64,000 bases of DNA from an uncultured bacterium (GCA_903841185.1 CAIMIV010000042.1:11319-75318); one strand, 5' to 3'. Shown: positions 10,264-56,661, counted from the stretch's first letter. The notes: generated by a model not told the origin, from the letters alone. Program-made: numbers and translations.

Positions 10264-10296
10264 AAGTTAAAAGATACAATAATCAAGACACAATAA

Positions 10297-10346
10297 CCCT
10301 GCCTACCGGCAGGCAGGCAAACAAATCTCATCCGCCAGCTGGCGGA
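10297..10346. repeat. two short GC-rich palindromic hairpin sequences in the scpA-scpB spacer
   Basis: ccctgcctaccggcaggcaggcaaa is identical over 25 nt to 29464-29488. tccgccagctggcgga is identical over 16 nt to 22502-22517. Confidence 0.5.
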
Positions 10347-10398
10347 CAATAATCAAAATTTGTTTATTAAATATTGTTTGTACCTTGTTTCTTGGTAA

Positions 10399-20881: not shown

Positions 20882-21674
20882 CTACCTTTCTATTTTTAAT
20901 TTGTTAAGGGGCTTGCGTTGAAGCTATTTGCCCAAATAAAGGGGTTTCCTTGAGGGAAGACACCTGAATTCAAGACAATTCGACCAAAAATGTGTCTGTT
21001 TCTAAATTCTAGCAAAGCTGCCAGCGACGTCAACTAGACAAAAGGCTGTATTTTAGGTGTAATAGCGGGCGAATTTTCCCGTCTCGACTCGTGGAGGCGA
21101 CCACTCGCCGACCCGAGGCGGATAATTTTTAATTTCCAATTTTTAAAATAATGTTTAAATTTTTAATTTTCAATCCTAAATCGGGTATGATAAAAACTAA
21201 ATCTCAATCCCGAGGACTCAGGACCAAATGTCTAAATAATTAAAATTTTAAAAATTACAAAGTTATGCGGGACGTCGAATGTGAGAAAGAAAAATATGGA
21301 TAGAGGAAAATTTTTTCTAAAAAAGGGATGTGAGAAAATAAAAAGGAGGGGGTAAAAAATATTTTTTTATGTCAGAAAAAAAGAATTTATTTTTAGGGAA
21401 AAAAAATAGTCCGGCAAAATTATTTTTCACAGATTGAAAGAAAAAATAAAATGTTTATTTTAACGCAGTAAATATCGAAGAATAAAAAAAATATTTTTTG
21501 TGAAAAAATTTGGAGGCTGTGGATAACTTCTTCTATTGCAAAAAAAACTATTTGTTCTATAATTTAGATAGACAAAAATATTTTTTAAATAAAAAATAAA
21601 TTTGTTGAAATAAAAAAGGTCGAACAATGTATTATAAAGATAAAAATAAAATAGAAAGGAAGGTGAAATAAAAT

Positions 21675-21887
21675 ATGGCAGTAAAAAAAGCAGCAGCTAA
21701 AAAAGTTGCGAAAAAGGTTGTAAAAAAAGTAGCAGCTAAAAAAGTTGTGAAAAAGGTTGTAAAAAAAGTAGCAGCTAAAAAAGTTGTGAAAAAAGTAGCA
21801 GCTAAGAAAGTTGCTAAGAAGGTTGTGAAAAAAGCTGTAAAAAAAGCAGCTCCAAAGAAAAAAGTTGTAGCAAAAAAGAAGAAATAA
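21675..21887 (+). CDS. lysine/alanine-rich histone H1-like nucleoid protein
   Basis: 70 aa composed almost entirely of AAKKV/VVKKV repeats, encoded by ~45-bp tandem DNA repeats. A bidirectional terminator follows. Confidence 0.6.
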   Translation: MAVKKAAAKKVAKKVVKKVAAKKVVKKVVKKVAAKKVVKKVAAKKVAKKVVKKAVKKAAPKKKVVAKKKK

Positions 21888-21984
21888 TCTTTTTTTAGAT
21901 AAACTATCAACTTCTATCCAATCTACGCAGATATTATGCTTAACAGCAAATAACTATGATTGATTGAGGCAGAAGTCATACACT

Positions 21985-22024: not shown

Positions 22025-22945
22025 TTAAACCGTGATTTGACAGAGGCGCCATTTTTGTGCCAGGTCTTTATGAAATGCGATGTGCGCTTGCGGAAGACGC
22101 TTTCGGATTAGCACCGGCAGTTGTCTTTTTTGCTCCGGACTGATCTCCATGTAACATGTTACATGTACCAAGGCATGAGTATTTTTTAGAGTTTCCATTT
22201 GCTGCAGCAGCTCCTCATAGTGTGCCAGTCCGGCAGCGGCGCTGTAGAGAGCGGATCGCGGTTCATATTTTTGCACGGTGGGGTGGGTGGCGGCATAGAT
22301 TTCGTCGGAGAGATAGGGGAGGTTGGCCAAGATTATCATCTTGGAATTTTCAATGTTCAATTTACAATTTTCAATTAGTGTTTCAAGAAGATTTCCTTGT
22401 AAGAATTTTATTTTTTTGGCCACGCCGTGGGTCTGGGCGTTTTGCTGTGCAACCGTTAGCGCTGCATTAGAAATATCCACGGCGAAGAATTTTGAATTTT
22501 GTCCGCCAGCTGGCGGATTGAATTTCGAATCAATGATTAAATTTTTTAAGATAGAAATAATAATATTGCCCGACCCAGTTCCCACGTCTACAATCATTTG
22601 ATGTTTGATGTTTGATGTTTGATGTTTGCTGGATATTTCCTGCAAGGCCATCTCGACCATCAATTCGGTCTCAGGACGGGGGATGAGCGTATCTGGGGTC
22701 ACAGCGAATGACAGGCCAAAAAACTCCCTGTAGCCCAGAATATAGGCCAAGGGCTCATCGCTCATTCTTCGCGTAATTTTTAAGTCTAAATTTTTAATTT
22801 TTAATGATGGAAGGACATATTCCGGGTAGGTCAGGACGAACTCGCGCGACTTTCCAATTTCTGCCGCAATCAGCACATCCAAGTCCAAGCGGTCAATTTT
22901 CCCGGCATATTTTTTCTGCAGGTCCGCGATGGTGGTCTTTGTCAT
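22025..22945 (-). CDS. prmC: peptide chain release factor N5-glutamine methyltransferase
   Basis: EPLAYILGYREFFGLSFAVTPDTLIPRPETE, SAM motif VDVGTGSGNI, and NLPY in place of NPPY. Confidence 0.75.
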   Translation of the reverse strand: MTKTTIADLQKKYAGKIDRLDLDVLIAAEIGKSREFVLTYPEYVLPSLKIKNLDLKITRRMSDEPLAYILGYREFFGLSFAVTPDTLIPRPETELMVEMALQEISSKHQTSNIKHQMIVDVGTGSGNIIISILKNLIIDSKFNPPAGGQNSKFFAVDISNAALTVAQQNAQTHGVAKKIKFLQGNLLETLIENCKLNIENSKMIILANLPYLSDEIYAATHPTVQKYEPRSALYSAAAGLAHYEELLQQMETLKNTHALVHVTCYMEISPEQKRQLPVLIRKRLPQAHIAFHKDLAQKWRLCQITV

Positions 22946-22954
22946 AATATTTTT

Positions 22955-23815
22955 TTAATCCAGTGGGCTTTTGATAGTCTGCAAATTAGTATTGGCCACC
23001 CTGGTGTAGATCTGTGTCGTTTCAAGGCGTGCATGACCCAGCAACTCTTGGATATAGCGAATGCTCGTGCCGGCTTCTAAAAGGTGAGTGGCGAAAGAAT
23101 GGCGCAAGCTGTGGCAAGAAACTTTTTTAGCAATGCCGGCCAGCTCAACTGCTTTTTTAACTATTTTTTCAGCACTTTCAGCAGTCAGATGTCCTTGTCC
23201 ACCAGCTCCAGTAAATAAATAGTCATTTGGCTTCTTCAGGGTTAATTGTTTTTGTAATGTTGGAATGAGTTTTTCAGATAACAGTGTGCAACGATCTTTT
23301 CCTCCCTTACCTTGGCGAACCATAATCATTTTTCTATCCAAATCAAAATCGCACATTCGGATTTTGATTGTCTCACTAACGCGCAGACCTGCCGAATACA
23401 TTAGTGATATCAAAAAATTATGTTTGGGGTTAGTTGTTTTCTCGAGCATTCGTTCAATCTCTTCTTTACTAAGGATTGTCGGCAGATAGTTGGTTTTTTT
23501 GGCACCTTTTATATCAAAGAAAAATTTGCGTTTCAATATTTGACGGTAATAGAATTTAAGGGCATTAAGTGCAACATTCAGGGTGGAATTGGCACAGTCC
23601 TTGTCTTTCAAAGAGATTAGGTATTGGCGAATGTCATCATTGGTTACTAGTTTGGGGCTTTTATCAGTAAATTGCAAAAAAAGCTTATTATAAAGTACAT
23701 AAGACTTTATAGTTTTTGGGCTAAAACCCCTGATTCTCAACTCTTGTTCTAAATTATACAGAGGGTCTCGTTCTTGAGTTGTTGTTTTTCCATCCATATG
23801 ATAGTATGTGTTCAT
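22955..23815 (-). CDS. tyrosine site-specific recombinase, XerC/XerD-like
   Basis: Catalytic residues in RVSE, KGGKDR, HSLRHSFATHLL, LLGH and QIYTRV. Size is 286 aa. Confidence 0.8.
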   Translation of the reverse strand: MNTYYHMDGKTTTQERDPLYNLEQELRIRGFSPKTIKSYVLYNKLFLQFTDKSPKLVTNDDIRQYLISLKDKDCANSTLNVALNALKFYYRQILKRKFFFDIKGAKKTNYLPTILSKEEIERMLEKTTNPKHNFLISLMYSAGLRVSETIKIRMCDFDLDRKMIMVRQGKGGKDRCTLLSEKLIPTLQKQLTLKKPNDYLFTGAGGQGHLTAESAEKIVKKAVELAGIAKKVSCHSLRHSFATHLLEAGTSIRYIQELLGHARLETTQIYTRVANTNLQTIKSPLD

Positions 23816-23894
23816 ATGATAGTTATGATTACATCAAAATCATAGCATAAACCATTGCTCAAGCCAATAACTTAGCAGGTACGAATAAAACTAG

Positions 23895-24189
23895 TTATCG
23901 GAAATAATTTATCACCTATGAATGAAAAATACAAAAAAATAGCCTTATCAGCATATATTCTTACAGCTGCCTATTTATCGACCGTATATAATTTCATTGG
24001 TCTCGTGGGGGCTGATTTTATCTTGGCGATTTTGGTTGCGATTTTACTAAATAGCTTTTTAGCATATCTGATATGGTCGAGTGATAAAACGCGAAAGTAT
24101 TCGGCTATTATTTTGACGATATTATTGTTGTTGGCCGCTCTTCATTTGTTGCCAGTATTTTAAAGGTGGTGATAAATTACATCCGATAA
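23895..24189. repeat. 295-bp unit bounded by 22-bp inverted repeats, enclosing a small ORF
   Basis: Left ttatcggaaataatttatcacc (23895-23916) against the reverse complement of right ggtgataaattacatccgataa (24168-24189) matches at 20 of 22 positions. The enclosed ORF starts 2 nt after the left IR and stops 5 nt before the right IR. Confidence 0.45.
23918..24163 (+). CDS. small membrane protein (2 TM)
   Basis: 81 aa with two hydrophobic helices. Confidence 0.45.
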   Translation: MNEKYKKIALSAYILTAAYLSTVYNFIGLVGADFILAILVAILLNSFLAYLIWSSDKTRKYSAIILTILLLLAALHLLPVF

Positions 24190-24386
24190 CAAAGAATATC
24201 TGGTTCAAAAAATTTGCCACAACTAAAACTAAAAGGAGGGCAAATTTTTCTCTCCCAAATCCCGCACTTTTCCGTTTTGTTGTAATTTAGAGTATAATGA
24301 GATGAATAAATAAATAAGAATATTAAGGTTTTGTGCCTAAAAGCCAAAGTGCAGGACTTCAGATATTCTTAAACGTTAAACGAAAT
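24187..24386 (+). repeat. copy 1 of a ~200-bp island repeat
   Basis: Begins taacaaagaatatctggttc and ends cttaaacgtta. Contains the hairpin aaaaatttgcc..ggcaaattttt with AAGGAGG in the loop and a tagagTATAATgag -10-like box. It is more than 90 percent identical to copies at 24886 and 29396. Confidence 0.7.
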
Positions 24387-24440
24387 TTTGTTCAAAAATA
24401 TTTTTTCATTTTTTATTGAGCCTTTTTGAAATTTTTTTAG

Positions 24441-24486
24441 AAAAAAGAAAGCCCCAGGTGGAATTGAATTTTCCACGAGGGGCTTA
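24441..24486 (-). terminator. rho-independent terminator for minus-strand small gene
   Basis: Hairpin agccccaggtggaa..ttccacgaggggct with a T-run on the minus strand. Confidence 0.45.
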
Positions 24487-24506
24487 GTTGTTGGCGTGTA
24501 ATGCGC

Positions 24507-24749
24507 TTATAAGTAACAAACGGGTCCGTTCTCACCTTTTTTTGTGTAAATTAGTGAAACCATTTGTGCAATAAGGCAGACCAGAAAAAATTCATACCTG
24601 CTTCCATTGATTTTTGGAATGTCAAATACCACGCTTGTGATTGCACTTAACATTCCAATGGTCCCCATAATTACGCCGATCCAGGCAAAAAACGTGTTAT
24701 TTTTATGCCAAATTTCTTTCATTATGACATCCTCCTTTTCGAGTTTCAT
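24507..24749 (-). CDS. small membrane protein
   Basis: 80 aa, two TM helices, followed by a terminator. Confidence 0.4.
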   Translation of the reverse strand: MKLEKEDVIMKEIWHKNNTFFAWIGVIMGTIGMLSAITSVVFDIPKINGSRYEFFLVCLIAQMVSLIYTKKGENGPVCYL

Positions 24750-24885
24750 GGTTTAATGTACTGTTTAACACCAAAATTAGCGTTCAAAGTAGCATAGCAG
24801 AAAACCAGTAACCCGTCAAGCCCACGGCCAAAAAATTTCAAAAAGGCTCTTTTAATAAGGAATATATTTTTGAACAAAACATCGT

Positions 24886-25088
24886 TTAACAAAGAATATC
24901 TGGTTCAAAAAATTTGCCGCAGTTAAAAACTAAAAGGAGGGCAAATTTTTCTCTCCCAAATCCAGCACTTTTCCGTTTTGCTGTAATTTAGAGTATAATG
25001 AGATTAACAAAGTAAATAGGAATATCAAGGTTTTGTGCATAAAAACCAAAGTGCAGGACTTCAGATATTCTTAAACGTTAAGTGAAAT
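24886..25088 (+). repeat. copy 2 of the ~200-bp island repeat
   Basis: Near-identical to copy 1 and lies upstream of the + strand ORF at 25216. Confidence 0.7.
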
Positions 25089-25215
25089 AAATCTTTATCT
25101 TTGTGGAAATTTCGAGCCAGGTTGCGTTGAACCAAGACGAAAATTTGATTTTTTTAAAAGTTTTTCCGCCACAGGCGGGATTATTTGGGGCTATTTTATT
25201 TTTAAATATAAAAAT

Positions 25216-26001
25216 ATGGAAAAAATTAACAAAAGCACAACACTGTTATTAAGTTCTTTTGCATTACTTCTGGTGCTAATCATTGCTGGGGTCATATCTT
25301 TCAAAAAAGAAATATCAACCTTAAAAAAAACACAGCAGTCATTATTACAAGAGAATGCGAAACTAAAGCAGGTCACAATTACTGATTCTCCTCAAAAAGC
25401 TCCCGTTGCTGAAATAACGGTTGGCAGTCCATGCGATGTGAATAATGGAAATATTTTAAATTCTAAGGGTCTGCAATGTTATTTTTATGATAGCTTAGAT
25501 TCAAGTGGAAATGAAATATTTCCTCGACACGGGGTATGGATTAAGCCTGATTTACGAAATATGCAAATTGATTCAAAGCTATATGAAATATATTTTAAGT
25601 CATGGAAAAAATATGTAAGTCCGGATAAAACTATTAGTTTTTCTTACCCACAAAACTGGAAAGTTGATGAGTCAAGTTGGAAGGATGGTAACTTATCTAT
25701 ACAATCAAGTGACTATTCACCGATATCAATTTCTAAGATTGAAAATAATGCTATTACAATAGAGCAGAGAATTAGTGATGATGAAAATGATAGACCATTT
25801 GAGAGAACTATTATCGAATTAAATGGCGTTAGTGGCACGAGACTCGACATCGCCCCAAAAGATAATTTAAGTGACCAAGAGCAAATAAAATTCTATTTTC
25901 AAAAGGATAAATATTACGTTGAATTAAGTGTTGCAAAAGCTGGATATGCTGCGTATGATTTTCCGACAGAATATTTATTGAGTACGATAAAAATAAAATA
26001 G
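25216..26001 (+). CDS. secreted or membrane-anchored hypothetical protein
   Basis: 261 aa with an N-terminal signal/anchor helix and no recognisable domain. Confidence 0.5.
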   Translation: MEKINKSTTLLLSSFALLLVLIIAGVISFKKEISTLKKTQQSLLQENAKLKQVTITDSPQKAPVAEITVGSPCDVNNGNILNSKGLQCYFYDSLDSSGNEIFPRHGVWIKPDLRNMQIDSKLYEIYFKSWKKYVSPDKTISFSYPQNWKVDESSWKDGNLSIQSSDYSPISISKIENNAITIEQRISDDENDRPFERTIIELNGVSGTRLDIAPKDNLSDQEQIKFYFQKDKYYVELSVAKAGYAAYDFPTEYLLSTIKIK

Positions 26002-26117
26002 CCCCAAATAATTGTTTTGCCATTCTGCAAAACAAAAACTTTTAAAAAAAATCAAATTTTCTATTAGCATGGATAAAGTTTGTGCTAATAAAAATGAAGA
26101 TAAAAATTTACATCACT

Positions 26118-26298
26118 TAACACGGCATATGCGGTTCAAAAATTTTGCGCTATTATATTTCAAGGAGTGCAAAATTTCCTCTCCCAAATTGCGCTGACGG
26201 AATGGCAAGTTTAGTGATATAATCAAGATAAGCGAAATTAACAAAATAATCAATCAATCCACGGCGCAACTTCGCATGTGCCGATACGTTAGACGAAA
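26118..26298 (+). repeat. diverged copy 3 of the island repeat
   Basis: Shares the start tacatcacttaac, a hairpin with compensatory changes (aattttgc/gcaaaatt), AAGGAG in the loop, ctctccc and a gtgaTATAATc box. It ends cgttagacgaaat. Confidence 0.5.
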
Positions 26299-26435
26299 TA
26301 AATTTATTTTATTTTTTAAATTCGCTTTTTATAATAAGAAAAAATAAGTTTTTTTATCTATTTATATAGGGGTAAAAAGGTGTTTTCTCCGCTGAGGCTG
26401 CGAAAACGGATTTATTAATATAATTTGTTTATATT

Positions 26436-28172
26436 ATGCAAAAAAATAACGAGATTGATTCATTAAAATTCAGCTGGGGTGATTTGGCGCGAGCGATTTT
26501 ATATTTATTTGGGGAAAAGAAAAATGAATATCTTTTTTCTTTGTTTGTCGTGGCTGTATTTAATTTATACGTAATTGTGCCGCCTTTGATAATTGGAAAA
26601 GTGATTGATTTTTTCAGCACATACAAATCAGGTGAATCGTTGAATACTTTTTATTTTTATGTGATTTTTCTGGGAATTTTCATTGGCGCCGTGCATTATT
26701 TCAATCTCTCCGCAATCCAGAAATTTCTACGTCTTAGCAACGAGTTAGTTTATAAGATTCGCGTCCAGGGCTTTGAGAAGTTATTGGAACAATCACTGTC
26801 CGAGCATGGTGAAGAAAATACAGGCGCCAAAAATCAAAAGATTCAAAATGGCGTGACGGCTTTTAATTTGTTTTCCGAAGCCTTGAATGACAGAATACTT
26901 CCCTCAATAGCGACGCTAGTCGGTGTTTTTGGCGTATTTTTGTATTTGAATTTTATCTATAATATTATTCTGATCGCTTATTTAATTGGCTTTGTCTACA
27001 TCCTTAGATTTTTCAGAAAGAAATTCGTAATGCTTCATTATGAAAAGAGTTTAGCTATGGAAAAATCAAGTGGTACTTATATTGAAGGTTTGAGCAATAT
27101 TACCACGATTAAGGCTAGTGGTGCAGAAAAAAATTTCAAAAGATCAGTCAGCAAAAACGAAGAGGCACGTAATTTTTTTGATCAAGAGATTTTGCGTGTC
27201 CGTGTAAATCAGTGGAAGTTATTTAACATTTATAACGGTATTTATACGGGAATATTTTTGTTTGTTATTGGTAGGGATGTAATCGCTGGCGTGGTTTCGA
27301 TCGGATCAATTGCAATTTTGTTGGCTTATTTAGAGAAAATAACCGACGCATCTGGCAAAGTGCTTGGTATGTATGGCTATTTAATTGACAAAAGAACATC
27401 TATCGCCCGCATGATGACTATTTTTTGGGCTGATAACAATATTTTAACTGGCGAAAAAGAATTCCCAGTCGATTGGCAGGAGATAAAATTAAGCAATGCG
27501 AGTTATGCTTATAAAAATGAAAAAAACACTAAAACTAATATTAACGGTGTCAATCTGGTGATTCAAAAAAACCAAAAAGTTGGCATCATTGGCACAACTG
27601 GCAGTGGCAAATCAACGCTTGTAAAATTATTGCTTGGCCTATACCCGCTTGATAAAGGAGAATACAAAATCGGCACAACTAATTTTTATGACATCAAGCA
27701 TGATGAAATATTCAAGCACATAGCAATTGTCTTACAAGAGTCGGAAATGTTCAATATTTCACTCAAAGAAAATATTGCGTTAAGTGAAAAAATTGATGAA
27801 GGGCGTTTATTGCACGCGATCAACATTGCTCAATTGGATGAGGTGGTGAAAAGCTTACCTAATGGCTTTGAAACTTTAATCGGGGAAAAGGGATACCATC
27901 TTTCTGGCGGCGAACGCCAACGCGTCGGCATTGCTCGAGCGATTTATAAAGATCCTGAAATTATGATTTTTGACGAAGCTACTTCATCACTTGATGTGCA
28001 AACAGAAAAGAAAATTCAAAAAGCACTTTTGGACAATCTTCAGCAAAAAACTATTATCATAGTCGCACATCGAACGAATACCCTGGAAAAAGTAGATGTT
28101 ATCTATAAAGTGGAAGGTGGAAAAATTGTTCAACAAGGAAGTTATGAGGAGTTTTTTGGTATTCACCAATGA
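26436..28172 (+). CDS. ABC transporter, fused permease/ATP-binding subunit
   Basis: TM domain plus GTTGSGKSTL, LSGGERQRVGIARA, IMIFDEATSSLD and VAHR. Confidence 0.85.
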   Translation: MQKNNEIDSLKFSWGDLARAILYLFGEKKNEYLFSLFVVAVFNLYVIVPPLIIGKVIDFFSTYKSGESLNTFYFYVIFLGIFIGAVHYFNLSAIQKFLRLSNELVYKIRVQGFEKLLEQSLSEHGEENTGAKNQKIQNGVTAFNLFSEALNDRILPSIATLVGVFGVFLYLNFIYNIILIAYLIGFVYILRFFRKKFVMLHYEKSLAMEKSSGTYIEGLSNITTIKASGAEKNFKRSVSKNEEARNFFDQEILRVRVNQWKLFNIYNGIYTGIFLFVIGRDVIAGVVSIGSIAILLAYLEKITDASGKVLGMYGYLIDKRTSIARMMTIFWADNNILTGEKEFPVDWQEIKLSNASYAYKNEKNTKTNINGVNLVIQKNQKVGIIGTTGSGKSTLVKLLLGLYPLDKGEYKIGTTNFYDIKHDEIFKHIAIVLQESEMFNISLKENIALSEKIDEGRLLHAINIAQLDEVVKSLPNGFETLIGEKGYHLSGGERQRVGIARAIYKDPEIMIFDEATSSLDVQTEKKIQKALLDNLQQKTIIIVAHRTNTLEKVDVIYKVEGGKIVQQGSYEEFFGIHQ

Positions 28173-28232
28173 CCTCAAACATGATAAAATAAAGATAAGT
28201 TTCACTGCCTATTTTAATAAAATACAAAATTC

Positions 28233-29255
28233 ATGTCCAAAAACAATCATAAAATTAGCATAAAAGACGAATTGACCGAATTTCTGCTTTACACAGCCCC
28301 AAGTGGCAAGGTAAAAGTAGAAATTTACTTTCATGACGAAAATATTTGGCTTACCCAAGACAAAATGGCCAAATTATTTGGCGTGCAACAACCAGCTATT
28401 GCCAAACACTTGAAGAATATTTTTGAAAGCGGTGAATTGCTGGAAAATTCAGTTCATTCCATTTTGGAATATACTGCCAGCGATGGCAAAAAGTATCAAA
28501 CCAAATTTTATAATCTTGACGCCATAATTTCCGTTGGATATCGGGTAAATTCAGCTCAAGCTACTCAATTTCGCATCTGGGCAACAGAAAGGCTTAAAGA
28601 GTACATCATAAAAGGTTTCACCATAGATGATGAGAGATTGAAGAATGGAAGATATTTTGACAAAGATTATTTTCTCGAACTTTTGGAAAGAGTCCGTTCA
28701 ATTCGTGCTAGTGAGCGAAAAATTTATCAGCAAATTACGGATATTTTTGCTGAATGTAGTATGGATTACAGTCCAACATCAGAAATTGCTAAAAATTTTT
28801 ATGCAATGATTCAAAATAAATTCCATTTTGCTATTACTGGCAAAACTGCAGCTGAGATTATTTATGAGACGGCTGACAAGCAAAAACCATTTATGGGACT
28901 TAAGACTTGGAAAAATTCACCAAATGGCAGAATTATCAAATCCGACACAGTTATCGCTAAAAATTATCTTAACGAGGATAAAATAAAAAAACTGGAAAGA
29001 GGCATTGTCGGCTATTTTGATTACATTGAAAGATTGATTGAGAATCACACCGCTCTCACGATGGAAAAGTTGGCGGAATCTGTAAATAACTTTTTGGAGT
29101 TTAACAAGTACGAAGTGCTTGAAGGAAAGGGCACGATTTCTCATGCCCAAGCAGAACAAAAAGCGTTTCAAGAATATGACGAATATAATAAGACGCAGGC
29201 AATAGAATCTGATTTTGACAAACTTGTAAAATCTTTACCGACTGGAGAAAAATAA
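28233..29255 (+). CDS. RhuM-family virulence/DNA-binding protein
   Basis: N-terminal VKVEIYFHDENIWLTQDKMAKLFGVQQPAIAKHL and the AIISVGYRVNS region match the RhuM family. Confidence 0.65.
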   Translation: MSKNNHKISIKDELTEFLLYTAPSGKVKVEIYFHDENIWLTQDKMAKLFGVQQPAIAKHLKNIFESGELLENSVHSILEYTASDGKKYQTKFYNLDAIISVGYRVNSAQATQFRIWATERLKEYIIKGFTIDDERLKNGRYFDKDYFLELLERVRSIRASERKIYQQITDIFAECSMDYSPTSEIAKNFYAMIQNKFHFAITGKTAAEIIYETADKQKPFMGLKTWKNSPNGRIIKSDTVIAKNYLNEDKIKKLERGIVGYFDYIERLIENHTALTMEKLAESVNNFLEFNKYEVLEGKGTISHAQAEQKAFQEYDEYNKTQAIESDFDKLVKSLPTGEK

Positions 29256-29395
29256 GGAGTTTTGAATTTTAGGCATTCCCGCCAGAGGCGGACAGGCATC
29301 CCTGACCCCTCTGCCCAAAATCCAAAACAAAAAAACTTATTTAATCTATTTAGAATAAAAAGCGAATTTAAAAAAGAAAATAAATTTACATCGTC

Positions 29396-29615
29396 TAACA
29401 AAGAATATCTGGTTCAAAAAATTTGCCGCAGTTAAAAATACAAGGAGGGCAAATTTTTTTCTCCCCTGCCTACCGGCAGGCAGGCAAATCCCGCACTTTT
29501 CCATTTTGTCGTAATTTAGGGTATAATAGGATTAATAAATAAATAGGAATATTAAGGTTTTATGCATAAAAACCAAAGTGCAGGACTTCAGATATTCTTA
29601 AACGTTAGGTGTAAT
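29396..29615 (+). repeat. copy 4 of the ~200-bp island repeat carrying a 22-bp palindromic insertion
   Basis: Same as copies 1 and 2, except that ctgcctaccggcaggcaggca is inserted after ctccc. The same 25-mer occurs at 10297. Confidence 0.7.
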
Positions 29616-29652
29616 TTATTTAAAATCCCTTAAAAAATAAATTAAGAAAAAT

Positions 29653-29955
29653 ATGACAACAATAAATGAGTTTCAAGAAATGTGTGCCAAGGTGGTGGGG
29701 GAGATTGACGCAAAATATGGCATTGCTCGTGACCCGCATTTTAGCTTCACACAATTTATGGAAGAAGTTGGTGAACTGGCGAAAGAGATAAATAAGCCGA
29801 AGTTGCGCAACAAAGAAATGGATCGGGAAAATTTGAACGGTGAATTTGCCGACGTCATCTTGCAGTTTTTCACACTTGCCAGTATGCTAGAAGTAGATGT
29901 GGAAAAGGCAGTTGAAGCTAAAATGGCGATACTGAAAGAGCGACATGATTTATAA
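29653..29955 (+). CDS. MazG-like nucleotide pyrophosphohydrolase domain protein
   Basis: 100 aa with the EEVGELAKEI...EFADVILQ pattern of the MazG/NTP-PPase all-alpha fold. Confidence 0.55.
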   Translation: MTTINEFQEMCAKVVGEIDAKYGIARDPHFSFTQFMEEVGELAKEINKPKLRNKEMDRENLNGEFADVILQFFTLASMLEVDVEKAVEAKMAILKERHDL

Positions 29956-29972
29956 TTTTAAATTACAATCCT

Positions 29973-30392
29973 ATGGGAAGGGAACAACCGCCGACATTTG
30001 ATCCGCGTGATGAGAAATATAAAAAAGTGGAGGATTTGCCGGAAGAAGAGCAGGAGAATTTTGTAAAAGTGAATGGTGGATTTATTACGCAAAAGGCCAA
30101 GCGCTTTGAGGACGCGGTTTTGAAGCAGGAGGAATTGCTTAATCCAAAGATCTTTAGGGGAAAAACTGCTGACATAATTCAAAATAGCTTGAAGGAGTCA
30201 CCGGAGGAATATATAAAGCACCATCGGCGACTAAGGCGGTGTAAAGCGTGGGCCGCTGGAGAGGAAGCCGCTGTGGCCGAAAAAAATATTATGCCGAATG
30301 AGGAGACTATTCCGGAAGACGCTAGTACGGCGGATGGACAGTCAGCTTTGACAGAAGAGGAATTGTCTGAAAAAACATGCAAAAGAATATGA
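29973..30392 (+). CDS. hypothetical acidic protein
   Basis: 139-aa ORF with no motif; its 3' end overlaps the next gene. Confidence 0.35.
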   Translation: MGREQPPTFDPRDEKYKKVEDLPEEEQENFVKVNGGFITQKAKRFEDAVLKQEELLNPKIFRGKTADIIQNSLKESPEEYIKHHRRLRRCKAWAAGEEAAVAEKNIMPNEETIPEDASTADGQSALTEEELSEKTCKRI

Positions 30393-30778
30393 AAAAAGAT
30401 AACAGAAAAAATAGCCGGCGCAGCCTGGTTTTTGTATTAGGTGCTATTTTGTGGTTGAGTGTTATTTTTTTATTTTCTGCCGAGCCGAATTTGCGCTCAC
30501 CTTTTTCCTATAACGTAGATTTCGTTTTACGCAAAATAGCGCACATTGTGGAATATCTTATTTTGACGGTGCTGGTATGGAAGGCTTTGTTGCCGCGAGC
30601 CAAAGGCAACTTGTTGCTGGCGGTTTTTTTGATAGTCTTGAGCGCGGCGGTTTTGGATGAATGTCATCAATTGTTTGTCGCAGGGCGGGAAGGCACGCTC
30701 CGCGACGTGTTGTTTGACGCGGGGGGAATTTTCATTGCTTGGTATTTTATTATTAGAAAAAAAAATGAAAAAAGATAG
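30377..30778 (+). CDS. VanZ-like membrane protein
   Basis: Hydrophobic helices and LDECHQLFVAGREGTLRDVLFDAGG typical of the VanZ family. Confidence 0.55.
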   Translation: MQKNMKKDNRKNSRRSLVFVLGAILWLSVIFLFSAEPNLRSPFSYNVDFVLRKIAHIVEYLILTVLVWKALLPRAKGNLLLAVFLIVLSAAVLDECHQLFVAGREGTLRDVLFDAGGIFIAWYFIIRKKNEKR

Positions 30779-31790
30779 CATCATTGAATTGGAGATGGGT
30801 GGCGGGGGAGAAAAATCATCGCAACTGATTGCGCAGATCCGGAAAAATTTCACGGTGAAGTCCAAATGGAAAAATAGCGCCGATGATGGAGCTGTTTTTG
30901 ATCTTGGTATAAATAATGTGGAGACGCCCCGCCAGGGCGTCTCCACAGCGTCGGATAAATTGGTGTTCACCACGGATGCTTTTATTGTGGATCCGATTTT
31001 TTTTGCCGGCGGCGACATTGGCAAGATTGCTATGTGTGGCACCATCAATGATTTATGCGTGATGGGCGCGCAGCCGATTGGCATTGGTTTGAGTGTGGTA
31101 ATTGAAGAAGGCTTTCCCGTAGATGATTTGGAAAAAATTATGCAGTCTATTGGAAAAATTTCCCAGGAAACCGGCGTGCCGATTGTGACGGGCGACACTA
31201 AGGTGACGGAAAAAGGCAAGCTCGACAAAATTGAAATTACTACATCGGGTGTCGGTTTGGCTAAAATAATAATCAATAATGGTGGAGCCAAGGTGGGCGA
31301 CGCCGTGATTGCCTCGGGCAATCTCGGCGAACACGCGGTGGCGCTTTTGGCGAGCCGCTTTAATTATAAAACAAAAATCCAGAGCGATTGTCAGCCCTTG
31401 ATTAAAGAAATTCAGAATGTTTCCCCGTATCTTACCTCGTGCAAAGACCCGACCCGCGGAGGTATGGCGGCGGTGCTTAATGAAATCGCGGAAAAATCTA
31501 AAGTAAAAATTGTTCTGGAGGAAGAGCTGTTGCCGTTTGCCAAGGAAACGGTGGCACTTTCCGGACTCTTGGGCATTGATAAATTTTCCTTTCCTTCTGA
31601 AGGGCGCTTTGTGGCCACGGTGCCGGAAAAACAGGCCAAAAAAGTGATTAAAATGCTGCAAAAATTCAATCCCGAGGCTAAAATTATCGGCCACGTGGAG
31701 CGTGGACGAGGCGTGCACCTGCAAACATCGCTAGGCAGCAGCAAAAAAATCGAAGTACCGCGAGGAAAGCTAATCCCGCGAATTTGTTAG
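30765..31790 (+). CDS. hypE: hydrogenase maturation protein HypE
   Basis: PurM-like fold, N-terminal ELEMGGGGE, and the C-terminal PRIC motif carrying the thiocyanate-carrier cysteine. The start is taken at the ATG at 30765. Confidence 0.8.
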   Translation: MKKDSIIELEMGGGGEKSSQLIAQIRKNFTVKSKWKNSADDGAVFDLGINNVETPRQGVSTASDKLVFTTDAFIVDPIFFAGGDIGKIAMCGTINDLCVMGAQPIGIGLSVVIEEGFPVDDLEKIMQSIGKISQETGVPIVTGDTKVTEKGKLDKIEITTSGVGLAKIIINNGGAKVGDAVIASGNLGEHAVALLASRFNYKTKIQSDCQPLIKEIQNVSPYLTSCKDPTRGGMAAVLNEIAEKSKVKIVLEEELLPFAKETVALSGLLGIDKFSFPSEGRFVATVPEKQAKKVIKMLQKFNPEAKIIGHVERGRGVHLQTSLGSSKKIEVPRGKLIPRIC

Positions 31791-33119
31791 AAAATATATA
31801 ATCTGCCCAAATGAAAGTCCAGCGTCGCCACGCGGAATTTGCACAACCGGTATCCTTGAGGAGGAGCCGGTTTTTTTATTTTCAAAATATTCAGAAATTA
31901 TTTTGTTGTTGGCGATTCCGCCGGCGATAAAGATTTGTGGTGAGCAACTTTTGGATTGCAGTTCAATAATCTCGCTCAAGCCTTCAGCGATGTAGCGCTG
32001 GGCAGTCGCAGCCAGCCTCCTTTTGTCTTTGTTTATATTTTTAATTAGATATTCAAACAAATAAGTTGTATTCAGTATGTAATGTTTTTTTGAAAATTTA
32101 GTCATTGAAAATTCATTGTAAATTGTAAATTGTAAATTGGAAATTGAAGGGCTTTCCATAACTTCAATCTTTGGTTTTATATCCATATAGGGCTTACCGG
32201 AGTTGCTTTCTAAGAGGTCTATCGCTTCGTGTTTGTAGGTTCTCTTATTGTCGCAAAAACCCAGTAGCAGCGAGACGGCATCTAGGATGCGACCCGTGCT
32301 GGAAGTTTCCAGACAATTAAAATTTTGTTGAAGTTGATTATACAGAACTTCAAATTCCTGCGCGGAATAATATTTTTTCGCGAAATTGTAGATAAAGTTT
32401 TTTTGAGATTTGAGATTTGAGATTTGAGATTTGTTTGTCCCTTGTTTTTTGTAGCTTGTGATTTTATCAAGTATCGCGATTAGCATTCTCGCCGGCTCCT
32501 GAATAGCCAACTCTCCTCCCAGCAATATTTGATTTTCCAAATGCCCAACGCGCTCATTGGAAATTTTAAATTTTAAATTTGTAATTTTAAATATCTCTCC
32601 TCCCCAAATTTTCTCATCTAATCCATACCCCGTTCCATCGAGAGCAATTCCGAAAAAGTTTTGAGTTTTGAGTTTTGAGTTTTGAGATTTGTTTGTATCT
32701 TGTGTCTTGTATCTTGTATCTTGCGTGAGCTCTCCCAATTGGGAGAAGATATGGGCCACGTGGTGTTGAACCTGGACATGCTCAGCTTTAAATTTTTTTG
32801 CTAATTCCTTTCCCCATAAAGTGGTGTTCATATCCGGGTGCAGGTCAGTGATGATGACATCCGGCGTAACGGATGTTTTTTTGAGAAACGCTAGGACAGT
32901 CTTTTGAAAGGCCTTGAAATTAGCGTCTTCTTGGAGATCGCCAAAATCAGGGGAGAAAAAAAGTTGACCATTTTTGAAAAAGGAAAAATTGCCAGCCGAT
33001 TCGGCTCCTAGAGAGAGGATTTGTTGAATGGTGGAATGAGGGTATTTAAAAATTTGCATGATTCGGGTAAAAAGATTATATATGTATGTAGTGTATAATA
33101 GAAATAATGAATTTGACAA
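31770..33119 (-). CDS. HypF-like carbamoyltransferase, Kae1/YgjD-like domain only
   Basis: TDLHPDMNTTLW and VQHHVAH match the HypF C-terminal domain. No acylphosphatase, Zn-finger or YrdC domain is present. Heptanucleotide tandem repeats encode low-complexity inserts. Confidence 0.55.
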   Translation of the reverse strand: MSNSLFLLYTTYIYNLFTRIMQIFKYPHSTIQQILSLGAESAGNFSFFKNGQLFFSPDFGDLQEDANFKAFQKTVLAFLKKTSVTPDVIITDLHPDMNTTLWGKELAKKFKAEHVQVQHHVAHIFSQLGELTQDTRYKTQDTNKSQNSKLKTQNFFGIALDGTGYGLDEKIWGGEIFKITNLKFKISNERVGHLENQILLGGELAIQEPARMLIAILDKITSYKKQGTNKSQISNLKSQKNFIYNFAKKYYSAQEFEVLYNQLQQNFNCLETSSTGRILDAVSLLLGFCDNKRTYKHEAIDLLESNSGKPYMDIKPKIEVMESPSISNLQFTIYNEFSMTKFSKKHYILNTTYLFEYLIKNINKDKRRLAATAQRYIAEGLSEIIELQSKSCSPQIFIAGGIANNKIISEYFENKKTGSSSRIPVVQIPRGDAGLSFGQIIYFLTNSRD

Positions 33120-39554: not shown

Positions 39555-39702
39555 TGTAATTTTAATAGTAATTTTTGTAACAAAATTTTTAATTTCCAAT
39601 TTTTAATTTTATAAATAAATCTTAATTTCTAAATTTTTAAACATTAGAAATTAAAACATTATTTAAAAATTACAAAATTAAAAATTATAAAATTATATTC
39701 TC

Positions 39703-56341: not shown

Positions 56342-56349
56342 AATAGCAC

Positions 56350-56431
56350 GGGCGTATAGCTCAGTTTCCGCCGGTAGGCGGACCAGCCTATGGCTGGGGT
56401 CGAAAAATGACGAGGCCTCTGGTTCGAGTCC
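56350..56431 (+). pseudogene. partial duplicate of tRNA-Ile with an internal 41-nt GC-hairpin insertion
   Basis: The first 19 nt are identical to tRNA-Ile (gggcgtatagctcagtt). Then comes tccgccggtaggcgga ccagcctatggctgg, then tgacgaggcctctggttcgagtcc identical to the tRNA-Ile 3' half. No 3' acceptor strand follows. Confidence 0.4.
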
Positions 56432-56460: not shown

Positions 56461-56534
56461 GGGCGTATAGCTCAGTTGGTTAGAGCGCGTCACTGATAAT
56501 GACGAGGCCTCTGGTTCGAGTCCAGATATGCCCA
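56461..56534 (+). tRNA. tRNA-Ile (anticodon GAU)
   Basis: Cloverleaf with anticodon stem cguca/ugacg, loop cuGAUaa, T-loop GTTCGAGTC and acceptor gggcgua/uaugccc. Confidence 0.9.
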
Positions 56535-56661
56535 CCTATGTTTTTTGTTTATGTTGACAACATTATTTTTATAGTATACACTTATATATAGAAAAGCCTT
56601 CAGGGGCTTTTTAAAAAACCGTAAAAACGCTTTTAAGTAAAAAAGGCTTAAATAAAAGAAA

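What the first reader, a model, noticed from the sequence alone, without database searches (positions are those of the whole stretch)
22590..32700. Perfect heptanucleotide tandem-repeat tracts inside conserved enzyme genes
prmC contains tttgatg four times (22593-22626). The hypF-like gene contains ttgagat four times (about 32396-32430), tttgagt three times plus variants (about 32650-32690), tcttgta three times and taaattg four times. Seven-bp units are out of frame, and three units add 7 aa of low-complexity insert. Loss or gain of a single unit would frameshift the gene. The tracts are either slipped-strand contingency sites in unusual (non-surface) genes or the footprint of a lineage-specific repeat-expansion process.
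Basis: seen in the sequence. Interest (0 to 1): 0.5.

Follow-up and report, generated by a model that had tools for sequence, protein, structure and literature searches.

The report
Seven-base repeat tracts inside enzyme genes
The perfect seven-base repeats in prmC and hypF are real and belong to a genome-wide family of short heptanucleotide arrays in these ultra-small (CPR/Parcubacteria) bacteria; they sit in frame in tolerant protein loops, turn over quickly, and occasionally slip by one unit and break the gene.

Summary
Observation confirmed. The window holds seven strong period-7 arrays. All lie in prmC (22025-22945, -) and the C-terminal-half hypF (31770-33119, -). No array appears in 100 shuffles, and other periods give at most one.

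The organism is a Moranbacteria/Parcubacteria (CPR) bacterium. In 80 related loci (1.15 Mb), period 7 dominates every repeat census. There are 78 perfect tracts of at least 3 copies, against 3-7 for periods 5, 6 and 8. 100 kb of E. coli has none.

The tracts are in-frame inserts. They are missing from solved HypF and HemK structures and fall in low-confidence loops. On the sense strand they are A-rich and G-poor.

Orthologues carry arrays at the same loop sites but with different units, so turnover is fast. One near-identical strain contig (1 SNP in 12.8 kb) lacks exactly one TCTCAAA unit, which splits hypF. Two 97%-identical relatives differ by a 21-nt (3-unit) in-frame indel.

The same (AAATCTC)n array sits in frame in TopA, GatB, LeuRS, MurE, TsaD, DnaG and LepA, and in a Verrucomicrobial MutL.

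Best reading: these are slippage-prone, STRR-like heptanucleotide microsatellites filtered by selection, not adaptive switches. The cause of the seven-base preference is unknown. Small GC hairpin elements nest inside them.

The parts
22025..22945 (-). prmC (release-factor glutamine methyltransferase), host gene with 4-5 heptamer-derived segments
   Evidence: Pfam PrmC_N plus methyltransferase domains. Homologous to HemK structures 1SG9 and 2B3T.
22597..22628 (-). Perfect array, sense CATCAAA x4.6. It encodes K107-M117 (KHQTSNIKHQM), just before the SAM motif VDVGTGSG.
   Evidence: The segment is partly unmatched (two gaps, 5 residues) in the alignment to T. maritima HemK. Orthologues have SHQSSVI-type (CATCAGT) or non-repeat sequence there.
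22487..22545 (-). Composite: GAATTTT arm, then 16-nt GC palindrome TCCGCCAGCTGGCGGA (22502-22517), then a degenerate arm. It encodes IDSKF-NPPAGG-QNSKFF.
   Evidence: Orthologues have the uninterrupted AATTCAA array (DSKFKIQNSKFF) or no array (DLKFF), a difference of 7 aa. An identical palindrome lies at 10331.
22345..22376 (-). Imperfect array, sense GAAAATT-type x4.6 (84%). It encodes I191-S201 (IENCKLNIENS).
   Evidence: Orthologues without the array are exactly 7 aa shorter here: P0153 DKVENIDNSIII against ETLIENCKLNIENSKMIIL.
22774..22805 (-). Weak period-7 segment (76%) encoding LKIKNLDLKIT. It is not an insert relative to homologues.
   Evidence: Ungapped in alignment A3 and against 1SG9.
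31770..33119 (-). hypF C-terminal (Kae1-like carbamoyltransferase) gene. The likely start is at 33059 (MQIFKYP).
   Evidence: Pfam HypF_C plus HypF_C_2. P0122 is identical from M21. Matches 4G9I residues 401-754.
32657..32723 (-). Site 1: two abutting arrays, sense GATACAA x4.4 (32693-32723) and CTCAAAA x5 (32657-32691). They encode QDTRYKTQDTNKSQNSKLKTQN.
   Evidence: About 19 residues are absent from solved HypF 4G9I. pLDDT is below 50 at residues 135-152. The RNA is unstructured, z = +1.1.
32561..32592 (-). Site 2: imperfect AAATTTT-type array (84%) after KIWGGEIF. It encodes KITNLKFKISN.
   Evidence: The DNA is identical in relative L086. Modelled as a beta-hairpin with moderate confidence.
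32402..32433 (-). Site 3: perfect array, sense TCTCAAA x4.6 (KSQISNLKSQ), preceded by a decayed array at 32434-32465. This is the tract that varies between strains.
   Evidence: Contig L084 has 3.6 units, and hypF is split there into 256 + 129 aa. pLDDT is below 50 at residues 227-234.
32090..32146 (-). Site 4: conserved core TTTAGTCATTG plus ATTGTAA/ATTGGAA array x4.6. It encodes ISNLQFTIYNEFSMTKFSKK.
   Evidence: The same core-plus-array composite recurs in other genomes, both intergenic and in hypF. pLDDT is below 50 at residues 324-340.
10264..10398 (.). Intergenic scpA/scpB spacer: heptamer-like A-rich arms carrying two GC hairpins (CCTGCCTACCGGCAGG at 10298 and TCCGCCAGCTGGCGGA at 10331). 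It folds as one long hairpin.
   Evidence: MFE -36.1 kcal/mol, z = -4.55.
39556..39700 (.). Intergenic inverted pair of AATTTTT / TTAAAAA heptamer arrays
   Evidence: Fold z = -2.7.

Best explanation
The tracts are heptanucleotide microsatellites of the kind long known from cyanobacteria as STRR. In this Parcubacteria lineage they are the dominant tandem repeat.

They arise and are re-homogenised by local replication slippage, or by slippage-like reiterative synthesis, of a 7-nt unit. They are commonest per kilobase in intergenic DNA, where inverted pairs form long hairpins.

Inside genes only a filtered subset survives:
- The net change must be a multiple of three units (21 nt = 7 codons).
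- The unit must be stop-free in all three sense frames.
- The A-rich strand must be the sense strand, which gives hydrophilic K/N/Q/S/T/I peptides.
- The position must be a surface loop.

The result is a set of tracts of about 3.5-5 units at a few permissive loops of prmC, hypF and many other enzymes. Single-unit slips still occur and give frameshifted null alleles, which selection normally removes. Repeated contraction and re-expansion keeps tracts perfect while the unit sequence drifts between lineages. Small GC-rich hairpin elements secondarily insert into the arrays.

Shown: the anatomy, the distribution, insert status, turnover, and one -1-unit and one 3-unit natural variant.

Inferred: slippage as the generating step, the selection filter, and the absence of an adaptive function.

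Not explained: why the unit is seven bases long.
For: Period 7 dominates:
- 78 perfect tracts of at least 3 copies, against 6, 7 and 3 for periods 5, 6 and 8.
- TRF finds 152 period-7 arrays.
- 193 lag-7 segments, against at most 23 for lags that are not multiples of 7.
- 0 in 100 kb of E. coli, against 6.4 per 100 kb in the related loci outside hypF.

Periods 6 and 9 would be frame-neutral, yet they are rare inside genes. The bias is therefore mutational rather than selective (inference).

Insert status:
- Gaps against 4G9I and 1SG9 fall at the tracts.
- pLDDT is below 50 at residues 135-152, 227-234 and 324-340.

Filters:
- Sense-strand composition is A 46%, G 9%.
- All 43 of 43 ORF-embedded (AAATCTC)n arrays have that strand as sense.
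- Perfect tracts reach at most 39 nt in ORFs, but up to 105 nt outside them.
- The unit has stops on both strands in 15% of ORF arrays against 47% of non-ORF arrays.
- Outside hypF, half of the arrays lie in the roughly 11% of sequence that is non-ORF.

Slippage and 21-nt quanta:
- L084 matches the window except for 1 SNP and one missing 7-nt unit in 12.8 kb.
- L086 and L004 (97.4% identical) differ by a 21-nt indel inside an array.
- Three array-versus-no-array comparisons differ by exactly 7 aa: two in PrmC, and hypF site 1, 12 against 19 aa.

Turnover:
- 28 of 70 orthologues have the same 19-aa loop at site 1, but with different heptamer units. Many of these arrays are perfect although the proteins are only 50-60% identical.

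Generality:
- Hosts include TopA, GatB, LeuRS, MurE, TsaD, DnaG and LepA.

Background:
- Heptamer SSR excess in bacteria, and a polymerase-slippage idea, are reported in the literature (PMC4692102).
- STRR are 7-bp repeats that form hairpins (PMC2670836).
Against: - No read-level data were available, and the one -1-unit allele is a single assembly.
- A pooled test of loop-length differences modulo 7 aa across five hypF sites is not significant (p = 0.71). The 3-unit quantum is shown only in clean pairwise cases.
- Some composites (TTTAGTCATTG core plus array, about 50 nt at 88-92% identity) recur at unrelated loci and in different genomes. This looks like copy-and-paste rather than local birth.
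- An AT-rich AAATCTC array in a 59% GC Verrucomicrobial gene is hard to derive from a local seed.
- Arrays within one locus share units somewhat more often than arrays between loci (OR 1.64, p = 0.0035).
- Nothing here explains why the slippage step is seven bases.
Confidence: 0.6

Rival explanations
1. The arrays are, or derive from, small non-autonomous mobile elements, like MITEs, Rickettsia palindromic elements or Nostoc small dispersed repeats. On this view they are copied into new sites, including in frame into genes. The heptamer periodicity would be a property of the element arms rather than of local slippage.
For: - Intergenic hairpin elements of about 110 nt, with heptamer arms and a conserved TTTAGTCATTG core, recur in L044 (x2), L024, L068, L005, L076 and L078. 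Half-copies lie in hypF of the window, L007 and L008. One such element folds with z = -4.8.
- The GC hairpin TCCGCC..GGCGGA occurs 35 times in the loci, and in two identical copies in the window.
- The same array-plus-double-hairpin composite occurs twice in one hypF gene, L014.
- Units are shared within a locus more than between loci.
- An AT-rich array sits in a 59% GC gene.
Against: - Unit sequences are very diverse within one genome and at one orthologous site.
- No terminal inverted repeats or target-site duplications were seen around the genic tracts.
- The natural variants are unit-sized (7 nt, 21 nt) rather than presence or absence of a whole element.
- No associated transposase was identified.
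- Genic tracts have no RNA or DNA hairpin potential (z = +1.1).
Confidence: 0.2
2. The tracts are adaptive contingency loci: reversible ON/OFF switches that let the population vary hydrogenase maturation (hypF) or release-factor methylation (prmC).
For: - The unit is not divisible by 3.
- One natural allele with one unit fewer truncates HypF in an otherwise identical strain.
- hypF carries 13 times more arrays per kb than flanking DNA.
Against: - All 81 of 81 representative hypF genes are intact across 138 arrays.
- The PrmC protein is identical on 12 contigs from several samples.
- Tracts have at most 5 units, far fewer than classic phase-variable tracts (own knowledge).
- The same arrays sit in essential genes (LeuRS, TopA, DnaG, LepA, MurE), where an OFF state is lethal.
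- The hypF excess is largely explained by five old sites inherited by all orthologues.
Confidence: 0.1
3. The repeats are kept by selection on the protein, as flexible hydrophilic linkers or 7-residue-periodic loops needed for function. The DNA periodicity would be a by-product.
For: - At hypF site 1 the loop length (19 aa) is conserved in 28 of 70 orthologues, as is a central aromatic-x-[IL] pattern.
- Site 2 is predicted as a beta-hairpin.
Against: - Arrays of the same architecture are commoner per kb in non-coding DNA.
- Peptide sequences at one site differ completely between lineages.
- The inserts are absent from solved homologues and are modelled as disordered.
- Protein-level selection would not produce perfect nucleotide repeats.
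Confidence: 0.05
4. The tracts are an assembly or sequencing artefact.
For: Short tandem repeats can be mis-assembled. The -1-unit allele comes from a single contig.
Against: - The tracts are identical in independent assemblies from several samples (L001-L003, L085).
- Reading frames are preserved.
- Arrays of the same kind appear in MAGs from dozens of unrelated studies.
- The 32-nt tract is shorter than the final k-mer (k141) of the L084 assembly, so a graph collapse is unlikely (inference).
Confidence: 0.01

Closest known systems
Cyanobacterial STRR (short tandemly repeated repetitive) heptanucleotide arrays
   Same: - Tandem 7-nt units with a few copies.
- Many dispersed arrays per genome, enriched in intergenic DNA.
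- Inverted pairs form hairpins (PMC2670836).
- Known to invade a functional gene, RNase P RNA (title of Vioque 1997, cited).
   Different: - Different phylum (Parcubacteria/CPR).
- Different, A/T-rich and highly diverse units.
- Here the arrays are translated in frame inside many protein-coding housekeeping genes.
General excess of heptameric simple sequence repeats in bacterial genomes (Mrazek et al. 2007, as summarised in PMC4692102)
   Same: Period 7 stands out among long SSR periods. A polymerase-slippage origin has been proposed.
   Different: PMC4692102 itself reports the excess in intergenic regions of Xanthomonas and Nostoc. It does not describe arrays inside genes. The original paper was not available to read.
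Phase-variable simple-sequence contingency loci (Haemophilus, Neisseria)
   Same: Both have an intragenic repeat whose unit is not a multiple of 3. Here a one-unit change frameshifts the gene, and this was observed in nature.
   Different: Host genes are housekeeping enzymes rather than surface or restriction-modification genes. Tracts are short, and alleles are almost always in frame.
Rickettsia palindromic elements (RPE)
   Same: Short repeated DNA is tolerated in frame in unrelated metabolic genes, at positions compatible with the fold (PMC10969869).
   Different: RPEs are elements of about 150 bp with conserved sequence and a conserved peptide. The tracts here are about 30 nt, tandemly periodic and variable in sequence.
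Nostoc small dispersed repeats (SDR; Elhai et al. 2008)
   Same: The 16-32-nt GC-rich hairpins (TCCGCC..GGCGGA, CCTGCC..GGCAGG) nested in the arrays behave like very small mobile hairpin repeats. That SDRs nest in heptamer repeats is recalled from memory. One search confirms only that SDR5 is a short mobile element in Nostocaceae.
   Different: The sequences and the phylum differ. No sequence relationship was tested, and the paper could not be read.

Membership tests
Simple-sequence contingency (phase-variable) locus | Tandem repeat inside the ORF with a unit length not divisible by 3 | tested here: met
   7-nt units read through in frame in prmC and hypF.
Simple-sequence contingency (phase-variable) locus | Frequent unit-number variation between or within strains | tested here: inconclusive
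   One of about 8 same-species hypF contigs has one unit fewer. Twelve of 12 prmC contigs encode the identical protein. No reads were available.
Simple-sequence contingency (phase-variable) locus | Host genes whose ON/OFF variation is adaptive (surface, host-interaction or restriction-modification genes) | tested here: not met
   Hosts are PrmC, HypF, TopA, GatB, LeuRS, MurE, TsaD, DnaG and LepA.
Simple-sequence contingency (phase-variable) locus | Reversible switching of expression | not testable with these tools
   Needs culture or time-series read data.
STRR-type heptanucleotide arrays | Tandem heptanucleotide units, dispersed in many copies per genome | tested here: met
   152 period-7 arrays in 1.2 Mb; about 0.1 per kb outside hypF.
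STRR-type heptanucleotide arrays | Mainly intergenic, often as inverted pairs forming hairpins | tested here: met
   57 of 117 arrays outside hypF lie in the roughly 11% non-ORF fraction. Hairpin folds have z = -4.6 and -4.8.
STRR-type heptanucleotide arrays | Heterocystous cyanobacteria with the canonical STRR unit sequences | tested here: not met
   The organism is Moranbacteria/Parcubacteria. The units are AAAATTC, AAATTGG, AAACTAC, AAATCTC and others.
MITE / RPE-like in-frame mobile element | Conserved element sequence present at many unrelated sites | tested here: inconclusive
   True for the TTTAGTCATTG-core composite and for the GC hairpins. Not true for most tracts, whose units differ.
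MITE / RPE-like in-frame mobile element | Terminal inverted repeats and target-site duplication | tested here: not met
   None is visible around the genic tracts in the flank listings. This was not searched exhaustively.
MITE / RPE-like in-frame mobile element | In-frame insertion at fold-compatible positions of conserved genes | tested here: met
   Gaps against 4G9I and 1SG9, and loops with pLDDT below 50.

The most novel reading that the evidence does not exclude
The arrays may not be passive microsatellites. They could be the product of a dedicated, still unknown seven-base-stepping activity, such as a repair polymerase, primase or nuclease system, or a very small mobile element. Such an activity would write short heptamer arrays into the genomes of CPR and some other bacteria.

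Inside essential genes these arrays would be 'frameshift-locked' selfish DNA. They could not be eroded one unit at a time, because every intermediate is lethal. They would therefore persist and be re-homogenised for very long periods at the same loop sites.
Probability: 0.15. Interest if true: 0.75.

Novelty: new variant of a known kind. Interest (0 to 1): 0.45.

Why it matters
Heptanucleotide repeats are an old, unexplained oddity of some bacterial genomes, and they have been described mainly between genes. Here they are the main tandem repeat of an uncultured, reduced-genome lineage, and they are routinely translated inside core enzymes.

This has three consequences:
- They are a hidden source of loop insertions, protein-length variation and occasional null alleles in CPR genomes.
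- They confound MAG annotation. They produce low-complexity 'KSQISNLKSQ'-type peptides and split genes.
- They offer a natural experiment on how reading-frame constraint shapes microsatellite dynamics, since only 3-unit steps are viable.

The strong seven-base bias inside genes, where six- or nine-base units would be harmless, points to a specific mutational mechanism worth identifying.

Tried and rejected
- **Seven-residue quantisation of loop lengths.** I tested whether loop lengths at the five hypF sites differ from the mode by multiples of 7 aa. The pooled test was not significant (p = 0.71). I therefore claim the 3-unit step only for four clean cases.
- **A fixed cassette of about 31 nt.** The 31-32-nt mode in the hypF-centred sample did not hold up. 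In the unbiased metagenome sample, perfect tracts spread over 23-39 nt in ORFs and 21-105 nt outside them. The mode probably reflects shared ancestry.
- **RNA structure in genic tracts.** There is none: MFE -1.7 kcal/mol, z = +1.1.
- **Rfam.** At gathering thresholds only two tRNAs match in the window.
- **DGR involvement.** An RT plus bAvd pair lies beside the hydrogenase genes in L086. I found no template-repeat or variable-repeat relation to the tracts and did not pursue it.
- **Literature.** Searches for heptamer, SSR or in-frame repeats in CPR/Patescibacteria found nothing relevant. Elhai 2008, Mrazek 2007 and Vioque 1997 are not held. They are cited through secondary sources or from memory.
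- **Same-species hypF contigs.** The look-up of contigs carrying the intact hypF protein (P0122) returned no DNA. I could not test whether intact and -1 alleles coexist in one sample.
- **Megablast comparison of related loci.** It gave few informative indels, because alignments break at the arrays.

Full report
**1. The observation**

The tracts exist, a few bases from the stated coordinates. TRF reports these arrays (sequence):
- TTTGATG x4.6, 100% matches, at 22597-22628.
- ATTGTAA x4.6, 96%, at 32115-32146.
- TTTGAGA x4.6, 100%, at 32402-32433.
- AGTTTTG x5.0, 96%, at 32657-32691.
- TTGTATC x4.4, 91%, at 32693-32723.

The same two genes also hold weaker period-7 arrays at 22148, 22345, 22487, 22774 and 32561.

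Period 7 is the only period from 5 to 15 with perfect tracts of at least 3 copies in the window. A lag-7 autocorrelation scan finds seven segments, all in these two genes. Other lags give 0-1, and 100 shuffles give none.

The ORF at 22025-22945(-) is PrmC. The ORF at 31770-33119(-) carries the two Kae1-like C-terminal HypF domains. It corresponds only to residues 401-754 of the solved HypF 4G9I.

**2. Organism and scope**

The best protein hits are Moranbacteria, Parcubacteria and Patescibacteria MAGs. A scan of species-representative genomes with the HypF alignment returned 80 loci from this group, totalling 1.15 Mb.

Period 7 dominates these loci by every measure:
- 78 perfect tracts of at least 3 copies, against 6, 7 and 3 for periods 5, 6 and 8.
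- 152 TRF arrays of period 7, with periods 14 and 21 next.
- 193 lag-7 segments, against at most 23 for other lags that are not multiples of 7.

As a control, 100 kb of E. coli K-12 has none. The related loci outside hypF have 6.4 per 100 kb.

Units are diverse: AAAATTC, AAATTGG, AAACTAC, AAACATC, AAATCTC and many singletons.

**3. The tracts are in-frame loop inserts**

Against the solved HypF 4G9I, about 19 residues of site 1 (TRYKTQDTNKSQNSKLKTQN) are simply absent, and site 3 is gapped. Against T. maritima HemK 1SG9, gaps fall at KHQTSNIKHQ, at IDSKFNPPAGGQNSK and at NIENSKM.

An AlphaFold2 model of the HypF protein (pTM 0.76) has pLDDT below 50 at residues 135-152, 227-234 and 324-340. 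These are the tract-encoded segments.

On the sense strand, genic arrays are 46% A and 9% G, against a background of 33% A and 23% G. They have no RNA structure, z = +1.1.

**4. Distribution and filters**

Outside hypF, arrays split 60 in long ORFs to 57 outside them, although about 89% of the sequence lies in long stop-free frames. Per kilobase, arrays are therefore several-fold commoner in non-coding DNA.

In non-coding DNA they often form inverted pairs that fold as long hairpins:
- L044 8858-8978, z = -4.8.
- Window 10264-10398, z = -4.55.
- Window 39556-39700, z = -2.7.

The consensus unit has stop codons on both strands in 47% of non-ORF arrays, but only 15% of ORF arrays.

An unbiased metagenome scan for (AAATCTC)3 gave 79 arrays that were not at contig ends. 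Of these, 43 lie in long ORFs, and in all 43 the AAATCTC strand is the sense strand. The other strand contains TGA. Perfect tracts reach at most 39 nt in ORFs, but up to 105 nt outside them.

NCBIfam confirmed the hosts as TopA, GatB, LeuRS, MurE, TsaD, DnaG and LepA. In TsaD the array sits after the HLEAH motif. From the motif position, I judge this to be the same structural loop as hypF site 1.

One host is a MutL on a 59% GC contig whose relatives are labelled Verrucomicrobiae. The phenomenon is therefore not confined to CPR.

**5. Dynamics**

(a) Contig L084, from another sample, matches the window over 12,778 nt with one mismatch and one 7-nt gap. The gap is exactly one TCTCAAA unit of tract 32402-32433. 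As a result hypF is called as two proteins of 256 and 129 aa. Contig L085 and the window keep 4.6 units.

(b) L086 and L004 are 97.4% identical. They differ by a 21-nt indel, three units, inside the site-1 array.

(c) Three clean array-versus-no-array comparisons differ by exactly 7 aa:
- PrmC NTDLKFF against VIDSKFKIQNSKFF.
- PrmC DKVENIDNSIII against ETLIENCKLNIENSKMIIL.
- hypF site 1, 12 aa against the modal 19 aa.

(d) At hypF site 1, 28 of 70 orthologues have the same loop length but quite different heptamer units: ATTCAAA, AATTGAA, CTACAAG, GGTTACG, TGCTTCA, ATACATG and others. Many are perfect, although the proteins share only 50-60% identity. Perfect repeats cannot be that old. They must be continually regenerated or homogenised.

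(e) All 81 representative hypF genes are intact, and the PrmC protein is identical on 12 contigs. Out-of-frame alleles are therefore rare or short-lived.

A caution: a pooled test for 7-aa periodicity of loop lengths was negative. The sharp 31-32-nt mode seen in the hypF-centred sample is not reproduced in the unbiased sample.

**6. Why hypF looks like a hot spot**

Array density is 1.38 per kb in hypF, against 0.106 per kb in flanking DNA. The arrays occupy about five recurrent sites that most orthologues share. The excess is therefore best read as a few old colonisations, inherited and kept periodic, rather than 138 independent events. This is inference.

**7. A second layer: nested GC hairpins and composite elements**

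The palindrome TCCGCCAGCTGGCGGA occurs identically at 10331, in an intergenic spacer, and at 22502, inside prmC. In prmC it interrupts an AATTCAA array that is uninterrupted in orthologues: DSKF-NPPAGG-QNSKFF against DSKFKIQNSKFF. The same peptide signature appears at another PrmC site in P0155 and in the HypF of P0016.

TCCGCC..GGCGGA hairpins occur 35 times in the loci, and CCTGCC..GGCAGG 12 times.

A composite of about 50 nt, made of the TTTAGTCATTG core plus an ATTGNAA array, recurs at 88-92% identity in several genomes. It is found both between genes and in hypF.

Arrays within a locus share units slightly more often than arrays between loci (OR 1.64, p = 0.0035).

These features argue that copy-and-paste or ectopic conversion contributes alongside local slippage. 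I give that rival a probability of 0.2.

**8. Comparison with known systems**

The closest analogue is the cyanobacterial STRR: 7-bp tandem repeats that form hairpins between genes (PMC2670836) and are known even inside the RNase P RNA gene (Vioque 1997, title only). A general excess of heptameric SSRs in bacteria, and a polymerase-footprint slippage hypothesis, have been reported (PMC4692102).

In-frame tolerance of repeated DNA in metabolic genes is best known from Rickettsia palindromic elements (PMC10969869).

The tracts here fail the membership tests of classic contingency loci, on host-gene type and tract length. They fail those of STRR proper, on taxon and units. They fail those of RPE/MITE elements, because most tracts have no conserved element sequence, terminal inverted repeats or target-site duplications.

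I found no paper describing heptamer arrays in CPR genes in the searchable library.

**9. Verdict**

This is a new variant of a known kind, namely translated STRR-like heptanucleotide arrays in housekeeping genes of Parcubacteria. The cause of the seven-base preference remains open.

Interest is 0.45.

Noticed in passing
window 56349-56430: A degenerate duplicate of the neighbouring tRNA-Ile(GAT) gene (56461-56536). It shares GGGCGTATAGCTCAGTT and AATGACGAGGCCTCTGGTTCGAGTCC with that gene. Its D and anticodon region is replaced by a double GC hairpin, TCCGCCGGTAGGCGGA-CCAGCCTATGGCTGG. The same double hairpin sits in frame in hypF of L014 (twice) and L016.
   Followed up: partly
window 24153-24396, 24874-25098, 29362-29625 (and about 25088-29388): Three copies of a direct repeat of about 225 nt. 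Strain contig L001 lacks the 4.3 kb between two of them, which holds a PsbP-like protein, an ABC transporter and RhuM. This looks like a low-GC (0.33-0.35), strain-variable island bounded by the repeats, next to a tyrosine recombinase gene (22955-23815).
   Followed up: partly
window 21632-21910 (-): A 92-aa Lys/Ala-rich ORF built from 39-nt and 12-nt tandem repeats (AAKKVAKKV-type), reminiscent of histone-H1-like basic proteins. It has no Pfam hit.
   Followed up: no
window 31770-33119: The hypF here encodes only the C-terminal Kae1-like half of HypF (residues 401-754 of 4G9I). The acylphosphatase, zinc-finger and YrdC half is not part of this gene. All 80 related loci show the same short form.
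   Followed up: partly
L086 834-2641: A close relative (about 69% HypF identity) has a reverse transcriptase plus a bAvd accessory gene beside the hydrogenase genes, which are the hallmark of a diversity-generating retroelement. These genes are absent from the corresponding region of the window.
   Followed up: no
L123 (metagenome contig, 59% GC): A Verrucomicrobiae-type MutL carries the AT-rich (AAATCTC)n array and a second, GC-richer array of 7-aa period (QSAIGNRQSAIEAIPQSAIRNPQ) in its linker. Close homologues range from 653 to 696 aa. In-frame heptamer arrays therefore also occur outside CPR.
   Followed up: partly
L086 vs L004, hypF site 5: Two 97%-identical genomes differ by wholesale replacement of a loop-coding segment of about 33 nt with a degenerate 36-nt heptamer array. 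SNP density is raised in the flanks. This looks like allelic recombination with a divergent strain rather than local slippage.
   Followed up: partly
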